A DNA stretch of 22,891 nt from a virus (IMGVR_UViG_2713896907_000001:1-22891), one strand, 5' to 3'. Positions 17,844 to 21,002 are shown, numbered from the stretch's first letter. Numbers and translations are program-made. Notes: generated by a model from the letters alone, not told the origin.

Positions 17844-18086
17844 TTATGCTCCGGTAGTGAACAGGTCTAACGCTTCCTTCGATTTACGCACCGCTTCGAT
17901 AGTTCGGGTCGTGATATCTGAATTAGCGCCACCTGACTGGAAGTGAATTTTGAATAGCTCAAGCTTCAGTTCGTCAGTGCCAATGAATTGAAATGCTTCC
18001 TCCGCGGATGCGTTCTGGTTCATGACCAGCTTGTAAATCTCTAACTGGAATTTCTGTTCTTCAGTCATGGGAATAATCTCTGCCAT
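17844..18086 (-). CDS. Hypothetical 80-aa protein immediately upstream of terS
   Basis: ORF MAEIIPMTEEQKFQLEIYKLVMNQNASAEEAFQFIGTDELKLELFKIHFQSGGANSDITTRTIEAVRKSKEALDLFTTGA; GGAG-like ribosome-binding site; no family recognised. Confidence 0.45.
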   Translation of the reverse strand: MAEIIPMTEEQKFQLEIYKLVMNQNASAEEAFQFIGTDELKLELFKIHFQSGGANSDITTRTIEAVRKSKEALDLFTTGA

Positions 18087-18189
18087 TGTTGGCTCCGTTT
18101 ATCCGTTAAAAGGGATATCAGTTAAGTTATCCCGTGTAGGGTATAAGCCATTATCAAAGCCACTCTGTAGGGAATGGCTTTTGTAATAA

Positions 18190-18570
18190 CTACTGTTCGC
18201 TTAGCTTCTGCTTCAGCAAGTAACCTTCGAGCATCCAGATTTTGTTTACAGCATTTTGCCGGGCAATCTTCCGACCAATTTCTGCATCAAAGTTTTCCGG
18301 GCTTGCACAGGCACTCTCTCCGGTGACGGTGAAGCCATTCTTCAGCACCAGTACGCAGAAAGTGAGCAACTTCAATGGTGATAAATCACGATCGCCTTCT
18401 TCTGGTTTTTCCCTGCCACAATATTCGTTGCTGGAAATGGCACCATTTCGTCCATCATAAGCAGTAAAGTAATGCTCGCTTTTAATCACGTCTTCGATGT
18501 GCTGCGGGGTGATTCGCGGTGCCGTTTTGCCTTTCTCAACGATTTCTTTTTCGATTTGCTGGTCGTTCAT
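18190..18570 (-). CDS. Gp49 / Sf6 gene-66 family-like protein
   Basis: 126 aa; core LKLLTFCVLVLKNGFTVTGESACASPENFDAEIGRKIARQNAVNKIWMLEGYLL resembles the Phage_gp49_66 family as I recall it; located between the lysis and packaging modules as in Sf6-type genomes. Confidence 0.5.
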   Translation of the reverse strand: MNDQQIEKEIVEKGKTAPRITPQHIEDVIKSEHYFTAYDGRNGAISSNEYCGREKPEEGDRDLSPLKLLTFCVLVLKNGFTVTGESACASPENFDAEIGRKIARQNAVNKIWMLEGYLLKQKLSEQ

Positions 18571-18886
18571 AATTATGACCCTGTAGAGTAGTTGCTTGAT
18601 TAGGATGTCTTTCCATCAGTCCGCCACCACAAAGAATCTTTTTTGCCATAAGGCTGGAGGTTCATCTTTCAGTGGCTGCCAGTGTTACTTCCCCACTTAC
18701 TGGCTTGGGTTGTTTCGTGGTACTGCCGTTAACTGGTGGCGCACAGATTTAGTTAAATCCGTTCTCGCCTGAACTATCTTTTACATACCCGGATTGTGGG
18801 GATGTAAATCACGGTTTCATTATCAAGCCCACCAGTAGATGGGCTTTGTAATGAAGAGTTGTTATGAAAATTGCTCTAAACAAGCA

Positions 18887-19375
18887 TTAATAGCCATCAG
18901 AAGTAATCGCTACAGATTTCAATCCCTCAATGTCATCCTTGGACAGGGCGAACCATTCACCGTGCTTTCTCTTTGCGGCAAATTTGCGATGAAGCATGTT
19001 TTCAGTTTCTCTTCCACCAGGGATCAGGCACTCAAGCTTCAAGCAGTCTGGTCCAGAGTTGCCAAGCGATTTGATGCGTTGTGGAATGTTGGATGAATAC
19101 CCAATTTTGGTTAGCCCAGTTTTCTTCGATGACAAAACGTATACCTGAGGAGGTTCTTTTCTCTGGTCTTCCATTACACGTCTCATTGTTGCCATAAGTC
19201 CGCCGTGCATCAGCATTTCAACAAAGAACGCTGACCGAACACCTGACGACTTAAGCATGCCAGAAAATTCACTTGCCAATTCCATTAACTCTGCGATGTT
19301 TTCAGGAACTTTTTGGCAGTTATCTTCCTTGTATAAGGAAATCATTCTTTGAAGCTTTTCTTCTAATTGGTTCAT
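18887..19375 (-). CDS. T5orf172 (GIY-YIG-like) domain protein with short helical N-terminal region
   Basis: From ATG at 19375: MNQLEEKLQRM... The C-terminal part VYVLSSKKTGLTKIGYSSNIPQRIKSLGNSGPDCLKLECLIPGGRETENMLHRKFAAKRKHGEWFALSKDDIEGLK fits the T5orf172 pattern (hydrophobic-Y start, KIG, R..SL, GG.E.E..LH..F, GEWF). Confidence 0.6.
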   Translation of the reverse strand: MNQLEEKLQRMISLYKEDNCQKVPENIAELMELASEFSGMLKSSGVRSAFFVEMLMHGGLMATMRRVMEDQRKEPPQVYVLSSKKTGLTKIGYSSNIPQRIKSLGNSGPDCLKLECLIPGGRETENMLHRKFAAKRKHGEWFALSKDDIEGLKSVAITSDGY

Positions 19376-19524
19376 AGCGTCTTTACCTTTTAGAAAGTGA
19401 GCCTGTCTCACAGAAAAGCCGCCCCGAGATGGTCGCCACCATATACGGCAGTTCTCAGGCTCAACTTTCTGAAAGGCTCGGGTGATGTAATATGCGCGTG
19501 AGATGCGCTGTGAAATTCAGATGT

Positions 19525-19548
19525 AAAAAAAGCCCCGCATCGCGAGGC
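19525..19548 (-). terminator. Intrinsic terminator downstream of the lysis cassette
   Basis: Minus strand reads GCCTCGC-GAT-GCGGGGC followed by TTTTTTT (plus-strand A-run at 19525-19531); 34 nt after the Rz stop. Confidence 0.7.
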
Positions 19549-19581
19549 TCATTAAATTGACTTTGTGATTTGCAAAAAAAA

Positions 19582-20019
19582 TTATTTCAGGCATTGCGTC
19601 CTGATGTACTCCTGCAGGTAGTTAACCTGCGCGGTTATCCTGTCGATTCCACTTCGGAGACGGTAATAATTGAGTTCAGCATCTGCTGTAAGTCTTGGGC
19701 TTTCTCCATTGCCCATGCTGCTGGCTCCGGTCGTTGACTTTGCACAGGTGGCGGCGACTTGCAGGCGCTTACGACCAGCAGAAACATCAGCACGGAGACT
19801 TTCGATAGTCGCGTTAGCATCAGCAAGCTCCTTTGTGTATCTGGCGTCGAGTTCAGCTACATCACGTTGACGCTTCTGCATATCAGAGATGATAGATGTG
19901 GCTTTATCGCGCTGGTCTTTGTAGGCGATGGCGTTATCACGGTAATGATTAACAGCCCATGACAGGCAGACGATGATGCAGATAACCAGAGCGGAGATAA
20001 TCGCGGTTACTCTGTTCAT
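19582..20019 (-). CDS. Rz-like i-spanin
   Basis: From ATG at 20019, overlapping the endolysin stop (ATGA): [79 protein letters not shown]...; N-terminal transmembrane segment plus coiled-coil periplasmic domain; last gene of the lysis cassette. Confidence 0.8.
19635..19826 (-). CDS. Rz1-like o-spanin lipoprotein, embedded in Rz in another frame
   Basis: [42 protein letters not shown]...: signal peptide with lipobox VSAC and a proline-rich mature region, fully nested in the Rz gene; exact start uncertain. Confidence 0.6.
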
Positions 20020-20513
20020 TGCTGACCCCACAAACAGATTTCACGCTCAATCTCACGACGAGTCATGAGACCTTTCCATTGCTTACCGCCAGCGTATGTC
20101 CAGCGACGTAGCTGATCACATGCGCCTTTGATATCGCCCTGGTTTATTTTGCGAAGAAGCGTCGATGTTCTGAAATTGCCAGCGCCCACGTTGTAAACGA
20201 ACGAGTAAAGAGCGCCGCGCGTTGTTTCCGGTATATCAACTTTTATGTACGGGTTAATTTGTCTGGCGGCCGTGGCAAGGTCTTTATTCAGGAGGGCTTT
20301 GCATTCTGCTTCGGTATACGTTTTACCGGGAATGATGTCTTTTCCTGTATGCCCGTAACATACCGTCCATACACCAACTATGTCTTTGTAAGGATTATGT
20401 CTCACACCTTCCAGACCATCGTTACCACTTGGGCCAGTGATTAACACAGATGCTATGGCAATAGCCCCGCCACCAATAGCAGCAGCAACGGCTTTTCGTA
20501 ATGATGGAGGCAT
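20016..20513 (-). CDS. SAR endolysin (phage-21 R-type lysozyme)
   Basis: 165 aa; N-terminal weakly hydrophobic Gly/Ala-rich signal-anchor-release segment ([20 protein letters not shown]), then [23 protein letters not shown] with an E-8-D-5-T catalytic spacing; directly after the pinholin. Confidence 0.85.
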
Positions 20514-20846: not shown

Positions 20847-20922
20847 TGGTGCTGGTTAACGGACTTGAACCGCTACCCATTCGCTTACAAGGCGACTGCT
20901 CTACCATTGGAGCTAAACCAGC
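20847..20922 (-). tRNA. tRNA-Thr (anticodon UGU)
   Basis: Minus strand GCTGGTTTAGCTCCAATGGTAGAGCAGTCGCCTTGTAAGCGAATGGGTAGCGGTTCAAGTCCGTTAACCAGCACCA folds as a 76-nt cloverleaf: perfect 7-bp acceptor and 4-bp D stem, anticodon loop CTTGTAA, T-loop TTCAAGT, encoded CCA. One G-A at the base of the anticodon stem. Confidence 0.75.
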
Positions 20923-20927
20923 ATATT

Positions 20928-21002
20928 TGGCGGGACAGCGTGGACTCGAACCACGATAAGAAGGTTAACAGCCTTCCGTAATGACCTTTATACGACTGAC
21001 CC
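20928..21002 (-). tRNA. tRNA-Asn-like (anticodon GUU), possibly slightly degenerate
   Basis: Minus strand GGGTCAGTCGTATAAAGGTCATTACGGAAGGCTGTTAACCTTCTTATCGTGGTTCGAGTCCACGCTGTCCCGCCA: perfect anticodon stem GAAGG/CCTTC, loop CTGTTAA, T-arm CGTGG-TTCGAGT-CCACG, encoded CCA. One U-U mismatch in the acceptor stem and a 3-bp D stem. Only 5 nt from tRNA-Thr. Confidence 0.55.

What the first reader, a model, noticed from the sequence alone, without database searches (positions are those of the whole stretch)
18571..19581. Insulated T5orf172 (GIY-YIG-like) cassette between the lysis and packaging modules
A gene for a 163-aa protein with a C-terminal T5orf172-type domain and an unrecognised helical N-terminal region sits alone between a strong intrinsic terminator after Rz (19525-19548) and a 316-bp non-coding stretch with a perfect 7-bp inverted repeat (18825-18846). 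This module junction is a known site for accessory cargo in lambdoid and P22-like phages. T5orf172 domains are nuclease-related folds, so this could be a lysogen-expressed defence or anti-defence gene, though the domain is also common in phages with unknown roles.
Basis: partly seen in the sequence, partly recalled or inferred. Interest (0 to 1): 0.6.

Follow-up and report, generated by a model that had tools for sequence, protein, structure and literature searches.

The report
Swappable nuclease gene behind conserved RNA leader
The gene is a real but ordinary accessory GIY-YIG-type nuclease gene, and the more interesting point is that it sits in a fixed slot at the end of the phage lysis genes whose folded RNA leader is kept in hundreds of related phages while the gene behind it is swapped.

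Summary
A 162-aa ORF (19375-18887, minus strand) carries a C-terminal T5orf172/MUG113 domain. The fold is GIY-YIG and the motif residues are kept. A strong terminator follows Rz, and the 7-bp inverted repeat is at 18825-18846.

The gene is accessory. Sf6 lacks it, HK620 has KilA-N there and P22 has Rha. About 80 of 5,426 complete E. coli genomes and phage HK106 carry it nearly unchanged. Epsilon34 gp68 is a distant relative.

"Insulated moron" is the wrong picture. The terminator, a 150-nt leader and the 3' hairpin belong to a conserved slot directly after the spanin genes, not to this gene. I recovered at least 360 loci, with every scan stopped at its limit. The slot holds Rha, KilA-N, T5orf172, HNH_3 or ANT genes.

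The leader folds into a small hairpin and a long rod whose base pairs CCUUU with the AAAGG Shine-Dalgarno. Covariation supports this: 25 of 32 pairs show compensatory changes. It matches no Rfam family. I found no promoter.

Most likely the gene is transcribed only by Q-antiterminated late transcription and is translated weakly. It probably acts as a small nuclease in conflicts between phages or as a selfish gene. Lysogen-expressed defence is not supported.

The parts
19582..20031 (-). Rz-type spanin gene, the last gene of the lysis cassette and the upstream neighbour of the slot
   Evidence: Pfam Phage_lysis 2.9e-36. In 140 related loci the ORF upstream of the leader is Phage_lysis in 105, LysC in 10, DUF2514 in 2 and Rz1 in 1.
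19523..19550 (-). Intrinsic terminator (stem 19550-19530, T7 tail 19529-19523). It is the first element of the conserved slot.
   Evidence: It is annotated as a rho-independent terminator in HK106 and epsilon34. A terminator-like hairpin plus T run lies within 160 nt upstream of hairpin H1 in 229 of 244 loci.
19494..19508 (-). Leader hairpin H1 (GCGC / GCGC stem with a 7-nt loop)
   Evidence: RNAalifold and pair counts. The stem covaries to GUGC/GCAC, ACGC/GCGU and UGCGU/ACGCA in other clades.
19386..19476 (-). Leader rod H2, a long imperfect hairpin. Its base pairs the anti-SD CCUUU (19476-19472) with AAAGG (19390-19386), which contains the Shine-Dalgarno AAGG 11-14 nt before the ATG.
   Evidence: On 26 sequences from two clades, 98.4% of cells are paired and 25 of 32 pairs show compensatory change. 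The SD is weak (-3.9 kcal/mol) with P(unpaired) 0.18.
18887..19375 (-). Cargo ORF of 162 aa. Residues 1-72 (19375-19160) form a three-helix bundle. Residues 73-155 (19159-18911) form the T5orf172/MUG113 GIY-YIG-fold domain.
18854..18886 (-). 3' untranslated bases specific to this cargo, between the stop codon and the conserved boundary
   Evidence: Homology to Sf6 and HK620 resumes at 18855/18853. In other loci homology to the window resumes 2-6 nt after the cargo stop codon.
18825..18846 (-). It has no U tract, so it is not a canonical terminator.
   Evidence: The region is conserved in 101 of 215 loci. The stem covaries (AAGCCCA/UGGGCUU versus GAGACCA/UGGUCUC) and has sense-strand U-G wobbles, always followed by GAUAAUG. 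It is 100% identical over 36 nt in Stx2 phage 1717.
18604..18853 (-). Conserved non-coding backbone block downstream of the slot. It is present in Sf6, HK620, P22, epsilon34 and HK106 whatever the cargo.
   Evidence: It folds better than shuffles (z = -3.69). It matches no Rfam family.

Best explanation
The ORF encodes a small stand-alone GIY-YIG-superfamily protein of the T5orf172/MUG113 type, with a family-specific N-terminal three-helix bundle. It is one of several interchangeable cargo genes in a conserved expression slot that lies directly after the spanin genes of lambdoid late operons.

The slot has a fixed order: intrinsic terminator, small hairpin H1, long rod H2 whose base pairs an anti-SD with the Shine-Dalgarno, start codon, exchangeable ORF, and a 3' hairpin.

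Shown here:
- the anatomy of the slot;
- its conservation across at least 360 recovered loci;
- the RNA structure, by covariation;
- the exchange of ORFs exactly at the ATG;
- the GIY-YIG fold and the conserved motif residues.

Inferred:
- The gene has no promoter of its own and is transcribed only when Q-modified RNA polymerase reads through the terminator during lytic growth.
- The terminator keeps the gene silent in the lysogen.
- The leader keeps translation low, as is usual for potentially harmful phage nuclease genes.
- The protein is an Mg-dependent DNA nickase or endonuclease. It either acts late in infection on competing DNA (co-infecting or resident relatives, or satellites) or acts selfishly in a homing-like manner.
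For: Domain and fold:
- Pfam hits lie above their cut-offs.
- phrog_4284 matches the full length at 9e-88.
- The AF2 models have pLDDT 87.
- The PDB profile search puts the UvrC GIY-YIG domain on top. It aligns VY with GVY, KIG with YIG, and R100 with the catalytic Arg.
- Y79, K90, I91, G92, R100, E125, H129 and E140-W-F are invariant down to 20% identity.

Accessory status:
- The boundaries against Sf6, HK620, P22, epsilon34 and HK106 are mapped.
- The full cassette is in 80 of 5,426 E. coli genomes, while 1,669 carry only parts of the query.
- The same cassette occurs in a DLP12-like cos prophage.
- A homologue with 49% identity sits after a different lysis module, behind the same terminator and leader.

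The slot:
- Cargo is Phage_pRha in 70, KilA-N in 22, T5orf172 in 12, HNH_3 in 6 and ANT in 2 of 123 unique proteins.
- The upstream gene is a spanin in about 84% of 140 loci.
- A terminator is present in 229 of 244 loci.
- The 3' boundary is shown.

Leader structure:
- The fold gives z = -3.05.
- On 51 sequences, 9 pairs show compensatory change against 3.2 +/- 1.2 in shuffles.
- On 26 sequences that include the independently found P22-type clade, 25 of 32 pairs do so against 14.9 +/- 1.7, and slid controls give at most 7.
- The sense strand scores 133 bits and the antisense strand 20 bits.
- G-U wobbles occur on the sense strand.

Expression:
- No promoter-like site lies on the minus strand between 19581 and 19375.

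Precedents:
- T5orf172 proteins act as homing endonucleases and as the anti-satellite nuclease Odn, often near terminase genes (PMC10448857).
- T4-type homing endonuclease genes combine terminators with hairpins that sequester the ribosome-binding site (PMC2988022).
Against: - No expression data of any kind were available.
- Occlusion of the SD predicted from thermodynamics alone is not exceptional. P(unpaired) is 0.18, against 0.17 for the holin gene and 0.18 for another late gene.
- In the P22-type clade the register of SD pairing is ambiguous.
- The second motif tyrosine (YIG) is a lysine in this family (KIG).
- No recognised DNA-binding module is present. The N-terminal bundle gives only generic helical matches.
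- One abundant Salmonella allele (P0002) has Gly at the position of E140.
- Most occupants of the slot are DNA-binding regulators (Rha, KilA-N) rather than nucleases.
- The pattern of near-identical ORFs behind diverged leaders holds for Rha ORFs as well, so it is not evidence of homing.
Confidence: 0.5

Rival explanations
1. A non-catalytic DNA-binding regulator. The T5orf172 domain serves only to bind DNA, and the protein does the same, still unknown, late job as the Rha and KilA-N proteins that usually fill the slot. PLE CapR is a precedent: a domesticated T5orf172-related repressor.
For: About 75% of the unique cargo proteins in the same slot are Rha or KilA-N proteins of the Bro network. 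CapR is a precedent for domestication (PMC10448857; PMC10111431). The motif reads KIG instead of YIG. The P0002 allele has Gly at the position of E140.
Against: Y79, R100, E125, H129 and E140 are invariant across the family down to 20% identity. That pattern is expected for an active site. HNH_3 nucleases also occupy the slot, so nuclease cargo is tolerated there.
Confidence: 0.2
2. A true free-standing homing endonuclease gene. The protein cuts slot alleles that lack it during mixed infection and is copied in by repair, dragging the flanking sequence along.
For: T5orf172 and HNH_3 are homing endonuclease families. Alleles of the site exist that lack the gene or carry another one. The ORF is 99.2-100% identical behind leaders that are only 81-86% identical. 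The position is next to the terminase genes, the commonest neighbourhood of T5orf172 homing genes.
Against: Rha ORFs show the same reshuffling, and one leader type carries 32 ORF types, so exchange is a property of the slot. The protein has no Zn-finger, AP2, NUMOD or HTH specificity module, whereas 87% of the T5orf172 homing genes surveyed have Zn fingers. At 162 aa it is small for a site-specific enzyme.
Confidence: 0.15
3. One reading: a moron expressed from the prophage that defends the lysogen, or counters defence, through nuclease activity.
Against: There is no promoter-like site. The terminator lies upstream, not downstream. The SD is sequestered. The whole control region is shared with late-operon Rha and KilA-N genes. 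The PADLOC hit covers only the shared domain, and NCBIfam gives nothing.
Confidence: 0.1

Closest known systems
HK106 gp64 and epsilon34 gp68 (annotated 'GIY-YIG nuclease family protein' or 'hypothetical')
   Same: They belong to the same protein family and occupy the same position after Rz, with the same annotated rho-independent terminator. The HK106 ORF differs from the window's by 1 nt in 489.
   Different: The epsilon34 gp68 ORF is too diverged for blastn, although its leader is 86% identical. None of these genes has been studied. The epsilon34 genome paper does not discuss the gene or the slot.
ICP1 and T5 T5orf172 homing endonucleases, and the anti-satellite nuclease Odn (Barth, Dunham and Seed 2023, PMC10448857)
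   Same: They share the T5orf172 subfamily of GIY-YIG, including the conserved Glu. They sit at boundaries between modules, often next to terminase genes.
   Different: Those proteins carry Zn-finger or RepA_N DNA-binding modules. This one has only a 72-residue three-helix bundle with no recognised family. It comes from a temperate lambdoid phage, not a lytic one.
Control of T4-type homing endonuclease genes (I-TevI, segB, Aeh1 mobE): terminators plus hairpins that sequester the ribosome-binding site (PMC2988022)
   Same: The logic is the same: a terminator and an SD-sequestering hairpin in front of a nuclease gene embedded in a long operon.
   Different: In T4 a late promoter inside the hairpin releases the ribosome-binding site. 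No internal promoter was found here. Here the leader is conserved while non-homologous ORFs are exchanged behind it.
P22 and phi80 Rha, and HK620 HkbK (KilA-N): the 'Bro network' of domain-swapping phage proteins (Iyer, Koonin and Aravind 2002, from my own knowledge; Tommasini 2023, PMC10111431)
   Same: They occupy the same slot behind homologous leaders. From my own knowledge, T5orf172 was first described as part of this network.
   Different: They have different folds and no sequence similarity to this ORF.
RNA-controlled Bro-network genes: P1 c4/ant, P4 CI/seqA, and Gifsy-1 IsrK-AnrP
   Same: In each case a structured RNA lies just upstream of a Bro-network gene and limits its expression.
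   Different: Those systems use trans-acting RNAs (Rfam C4 and isrK). The leader here matches neither family at E up to 5, and no trans partner is known.
Morons (the HK97-type definition: promoter, gene, terminator; from my own knowledge)
   Same: An extra gene lies between conserved late genes.
   Different: The order is reversed: terminator, leader, gene. No promoter is present.

Membership tests
T5orf172 / MUG113 (Pfam PF10544 / PF13455; GIY-YIG clan, from my own knowledge) | Profile HMM score above the curated cut-off | tested here: met
   MUG113 scores 56 bits against a cut-off of 22.3. T5orf172 scores 41 bits against 20.
GIY-YIG superfamily | The GIY-YIG alpha/beta fold, a three-stranded sheet flanked by helices | tested here: met
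GIY-YIG superfamily | Catalytic motif residues: first Tyr, second Tyr, Arg, metal-binding Glu | tested here: inconclusive
   Y79, R100 and E140 are present and invariant. The second Tyr is replaced by Lys (K90-I-G), as is usual in this subfamily. The equivalent of the conserved Asn was not identified. One allele (P0002) has Gly at position 140.
GIY-YIG superfamily | Nuclease activity | not testable with these tools
   This needs biochemistry.
Free-standing homing endonuclease gene | Presence and absence polymorphism at one site between otherwise similar genomes | tested here: met
   Sf6 lacks the unit. HK620 and P22 carry other ORFs at the same boundaries.
Free-standing homing endonuclease gene | A separate sequence-specific DNA-binding module | tested here: not met
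   No Pfam, NCBIfam or structural match was found for residues 1-72. Typical T5orf172 homing genes carry Zn fingers.
Free-standing homing endonuclease gene | Spread specific to the gene, shown by an ORF far more similar than its flanks | tested here: inconclusive
   This is true for the ORF. It is equally true for the Rha ORFs in the slot.
Moron (independently expressed insert) | Own promoter upstream and terminator downstream | tested here: not met
   No promoter-like site was found on the minus strand. The terminator is upstream. The downstream hairpin lacks a U tract.
Known anti-phage defence systems (PADLOC 2.0) | Match to a defence-system model beyond the shared domain | tested here: not met
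   The only hit is PDC-S57 (a candidate system) at 7e-6 over residues 73-146.
SD-sequestering translational control leader | A conserved helix that pairs the SD, supported by compensatory changes | tested here: met
   Pairs 19476-19472 with 19386-19390 covary: C-G to U-A, U-A to C-G, and U-A to A-U.
SD-sequestering translational control leader | Demonstrated repression of translation, and a release mechanism | not testable with these tools
   No internal promoter, conserved leader peptide or trans partner was found.
Rfam families (release 15) | Covariance-model match for the leader or the downstream block | tested here: not met
   Only tRNAs reach gathering score. At E up to 5 the only hits are weak, terminator-driven matches to Phe_leader and isrJ.

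The most novel reading that the evidence does not exclude
The terminator-H1-H2 leader is an undescribed class of cis-regulatory RNA. It gates a hot-swappable arsenal of Bro-network and nuclease genes (Rha, KilA-N, T5orf172, HNH, ANT) at the end of the lysis cassette in lambdoid phages, including P22, HK620 and Stx2a phages. On this reading it is a switch rather than a passive throttle. It would be opened by a host or phage signal, for example RNase III cleavage of the rod, a host factor such as IHF (which would explain the old Rha phenotype in IHF mutants), or temperature. The cargo would then be produced only under particular conditions of infection, such as mixed infection or the presence of a satellite.
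Probability: 0.25. Interest if true: 0.75.

Novelty: new variant of a known kind. Interest (0 to 1): 0.5.

Why it matters
The gene adds little on its own. It is already annotated in RefSeq as a GIY-YIG family protein and its function is unknown.

What matters is the setting. P22, HK620, Sf6-like and Shiga-toxin phages are among the best-studied viruses. Even so, a 150-nt RNA structure with strong covariation, sitting inside their late operons, seems to have gone unremarked. It is absent from Rfam, and I found no description of it in the literature I could search.

The structure defines a fixed regulatory platform behind which unrelated genes are exchanged exactly at the start codon. That gives a concrete, testable handle on three things: how lambdoid phages keep potentially harmful DNA-acting proteins in check, why Rha becomes harmful in host-factor mutants, and how cargo spreads between phages.

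There are practical consequences too. The finding corrects gene starts such as that of P22 rha. It also warns against reading every accessory nuclease gene at a module junction as a lysogen defence gene.

Tried and rejected
- The PDB sequence search with the full-length profile gave nothing.
- dN/dS could not be estimated. The recovered alleles are nearly identical, and the next relative is saturated.
- I considered a second intrinsic terminator at GCCG...CGGC-UUUUCU. In the consensus fold the U run pairs with AGAA inside the rod. A weak co-transcriptional terminator cannot be excluded.
- I considered a leader peptide (ATG at 19441 to TAA at 19382, 19 codons). The ATG is absent from the commonest leader type, so I rejected it.
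- I looked for a promoter inside the hairpin, as in T4. No conserved -35 and -10 pair was found.
- I considered that 18604-18738 is a remnant of the rha 3' end. It lies downstream of rha in P22, so I rejected this.
- The paper by Henthorn and Friedman (1995) on Rha and IHF could not be retrieved. It is cited from memory only.
- The epsilon34 and BTP1 papers say nothing about this slot.

Full report
**1. What is in the sequence**

All genes in this part of the window lie on the minus strand. They follow the order of a P22/Sf6-like late operon:
- a phage-21-type Q gene (21582-21094);
- two tRNAs (21002-20931 and 20922-20850);
- holin (20728-20513), lysozyme (20513-20016) and Rz (20031-19582);
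- the finding;
- an Sf6 gp66-like gene (18570-18190) and a DUF2560 gene (18086-17844);
- the small and large terminase genes (17841-17401 and 17404-15989).

The ORF of the finding runs from 19375 to 18887 and encodes 162 aa. Between the Rz stop codon and its ATG lie a strong intrinsic terminator (stem 19550-19530, T7 tail) and about 150 nt of leader. After its stop codon come 316 non-coding bases, with the perfect 7-bp inverted repeat at 18825-18846.

**2. The protein**

Pfam places residues 78-151 in MUG113 (6e-15) and T5orf172 (2.8e-10). Residues 1-75 match nothing. PHROGs has a full-length family of unknown function (phrog_4284, 9e-88). NCBIfam gives nothing, and PADLOC gives only a weak domain-level hit to the candidate system PDC-S57.

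An exhaustive profile search shows that the C-terminal domain is very widespread, with 38,349 representatives at E up to 0.001. The N-terminal region recurs only in a handful of proteins of about 160 aa.

Across that family, down to 20% identity, these residues are invariant: Y79, K90-I91-G92, R100, E125, L128-H129 and E140-W141-F142.

AlphaFold (pLDDT 87) predicts an N-terminal three-helix bundle (3-16, 24-43, 49-71), followed by a beta-beta-alpha-beta-alpha-beta-alpha domain.

A profile search of PDB sequences puts the UvrC GIY-YIG domain on top, though it is not significant on its own (E 0.6). It aligns VY with GVY, KIG with YIG, and R100 with the catalytic arginine.

The domain assignment stands, and the active-site-like residues are under constraint. 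Two caveats apply. The second motif tyrosine is a lysine. One abundant Salmonella allele has glycine at position 140.

**3. The gene is accessory and already in the databases**

The whole 1-kb region is 96% identical to phage HK106 (gp64, with an annotated terminator) and 99.6% identical to prophages in 80 of 5,426 complete E. coli genomes. A further 1,600 or so genomes, and about 290 phage records, match only the flanks.

Pairwise blastn defines the mosaic boundaries:
- Against Sf6, window 17846-18855 and 19589-20019 are 97% identical. The 733 bp in between (terminator, leader and ORF) replace 159 bp that carry Sf6 gene 65.
- Against HK620, the leader (19371-19549, 88%) and the downstream block (18604-18853, 97%) are conserved. 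HkbK (KilA-N) plus HkbL replace the ORF from the ATG to about 33 bp after the stop codon.
- P22 carries rha at this position.
- The epsilon34 gp68 ORF belongs to the same protein family but is too diverged for blastn, whereas its leader is 86% identical.

The cassette also occurs in a DLP12-like cos prophage, between Rz and nohD. A homologue with 49% identity sits after an unrelated holin, CHAP endolysin and spanin module and before an unrelated terminase. It is preceded by the same terminator and leader.

**4. The flanks are a conserved slot, not part of the cassette**

I scanned public collections with patterns taken from the leader. All three scans stopped at their limit of 120 loci, so these numbers are lower bounds:
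- viral contigs;
- metagenome contigs;
- a diverged P22-type version, again in viral contigs.

In 235 of 248 matches an ORF starts 31-36 nt after the pattern.

Among the 123 distinct cargo proteins, 70 are Phage_pRha, 22 are KilA-N (25 carry ORF11CD3), 12 are T5orf172/MUG113, 6 are HNH_3 and 2 are ANT with P63C. Apart from HNH_3, these families belong to the domain-swapping "Bro network". Iyer and colleagues described it in 2002 (my own knowledge), and it has since been noted in satellites (PMC10111431).

Other features of the slot:
- The ORF upstream of the leader is a spanin in about 84% of 140 loci.
- A terminator-like hairpin with a T run precedes the leader in 229 of 244 loci.
- Downstream, homology to the window resumes 2-6 nt after the cargo stop codon, at 18853/18852. 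The hairpin region is the best conserved part, seen in 101 of 215 loci.
- The hairpin stem covaries and shows sense-strand U-G wobbles.

ORFs and leaders reassort freely. The T5orf172 ORF is 99.2-100% identical behind leaders that are only 81-86% identical. All six abundant ORF types, Rha included, occur behind more than one leader type. One leader type carries 32 ORF types. Exchange at the ATG is therefore a property of the slot, not a signature of the nuclease.

**5. The leader is a structured RNA**

The window's leader folds better than shuffled sequence (z = -3.05). On 51 non-redundant leaders, RNAalifold predicts a small hairpin H1 (window 19508-19494) and a long rod H2 (19476-19386).

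Pair counts on those 51 sequences give 99.3% paired cells. Nine pairs show compensatory changes, against 3.2 +/- 1.2 in shuffles (0 of 500 shuffles reach the observed value) and 0-3 in slid controls. One helix could not vary in this set, because the search pattern fixed its sequence.

The P22-type clade was found with a different pattern, and it changes that helix in a compensatory way: AGAA/UUCU becomes AGGA/UCCU, and GCCG/CGGC becomes CCAG/CUGG. A covariance model built only on the first clade recovers the P22-type leaders at 57-71 bits.

On the joint alignment of 26 sequences, 98.4% of cells pair and 25 of 32 pairs show compensatory change. Shuffles give 14.9 +/- 1.7 and slid controls at most 7.

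Three caveats apply:
- That alignment is fitted to the model.
- The counts are of sequences, not of independent events.
- The structure was derived from these sequences.

The antisense strand scores only 20-32 bits, and G-U pairs are frequent. The structure is therefore read on the mRNA strand.

The base of the rod pairs CCUUU (19476-19472) with AAAGG (19390-19386). This contains the only Shine-Dalgarno-like element, AAGG at -14 to -11. It is weak (-3.9 kcal/mol against the 16S tail) and mostly paired in the ensemble, with P(unpaired) 0.18. That value alone is not exceptional among the window's genes. The covariation is what carries the argument.

The U run after CGGC pairs with AGAA inside the rod, so I do not call it a second terminator, although weak co-transcriptional termination is possible. 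There is no conserved leader peptide and no conserved promoter. Rfam 15 has no matching family. My literature searches found no description of the element.

**6. How it most likely works**

Shown: the anatomy, its conservation, the RNA structure, the exchange at the ATG, and the GIY-YIG fold with its conserved motif residues.

Inferred:
- The slot lies inside the Q-dependent late operon, as shown by synteny with the Sf6, HK620 and epsilon34 annotations.
- From established lambda biology, Q-modified polymerase ignores intrinsic terminators. The terminator would therefore stop only unmodified polymerase and keep the cargo silent in the lysogen.
- Late in infection the gene would be transcribed but translated poorly, because its weak SD sits in the rod.
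- T4-type phages treat their homing endonuclease genes in the same way, with terminators and hairpins that sequester the ribosome-binding site (PMC2988022).
- For the protein I commit to an Mg-dependent DNA nickase or endonuclease that acts late on competing DNA or selfishly. This rests on analogy with the T5orf172 homing enzymes and the anti-satellite nuclease Odn (PMC10448857). My confidence in this step is moderate to low.

The rivals, with the evidence for and against each, are given in their own sections. They are a non-catalytic regulator that does the same job as Rha, a true homing endonuclease, and a lysogen defence gene.

**7. Comparison, novelty and verdict**

The gene is a member of the T5orf172/MUG113 branch of GIY-YIG. 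Profile and fold tests are met, the catalytic motif is partly met, and activity is untested. The gene is already annotated and unstudied.

It does not meet the definition of a moron, because it has no promoter and its terminator is on the wrong side. It does not qualify as a member of a known defence system. It fails one defining feature of homing endonuclease genes, a recognisable specificity module.

The new part is the platform: a conserved terminator, a leader supported by covariation and a 3' hairpin, all shared by non-homologous and freely exchanged ORFs in very well-studied phages.

I rate the whole as a new variant of a known kind (translational control by SD sequestration, and mosaic exchange at boundary sequences). 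Interest is 0.5. The gene as first described is ordinary. The leader is more interesting and directly testable.

Noticed in passing
window 18190-18604: The Sf6 gp66-like gene (PF13876) is itself a precise insertion or deletion. Epsilon34, HK106, HK620 and P22 join 18190 directly to 18604. This is a second exchangeable unit just downstream of the slot.
   Followed up: partly
L004 (P22, AB362338) 2079-2149: The annotated GTG start of P22 rha (201 aa) lies inside the leader rod. In 105 of 109 P22-type leaders with a cargo ORF, the ORF starts 36 nt after the pattern. This puts the likely true start at the ATG of MNELIANHDF, giving about 178 aa.
   Followed up: partly
L005 (Stx2a phage PV11-59) 4365-4502; L160 9718-9854: Some phages carry a second copy of the leader motif (68.6 and 51.3 bits) about 1 kb upstream of the first. 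This suggests tandem slots.
   Followed up: no
window 18820-18822 and related loci: The 3' hairpin is always followed by GAUAAUG. In many loci that ATG seems to open the next gene (GATAATGGCT...). In the window it opens only a 3-codon ORF (ATGAAACCGTGA), so a downstream gene seems to have been lost.
   Followed up: no
window 18536-18649 (minus strand): A 37-codon ORF (MAKKILCGGG...) overlaps the start of the gp66-like gene. The epsilon34 record marks the homologous stretch as similar to the N-terminus of ST64T orf118, so this is probably a remnant of a displaced gene.
   Followed up: no
protein P0002 (Salmonella cluster of 114 members, 98% identical): This allele has Gly in place of the invariant Glu140 (HGGWF) and Tyr in place of Asp110. 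It may be a catalytically dead variant.
   Followed up: no
window 20850-20922 and 20931-21002 (minus strand): Two tRNA genes lie between Q/tR' and the holin gene, as in Sf6 and phage 21.
   Followed up: no
window 19373-19512 compared with HK106 (L001): The T5orf172 ORF differs from that of HK106 by 1 nt in 489, whereas the surrounding 1.3 kb is only 96.4% identical. The ORF has therefore moved recently between backgrounds.
   Followed up: yes
window 19557-19585 (plus strand): A promoter-like site (TTGACT, 17 nt, AATTAT) points antisense into Rz. The number of such sites in the region is no higher than in shuffles.
   Followed up: no
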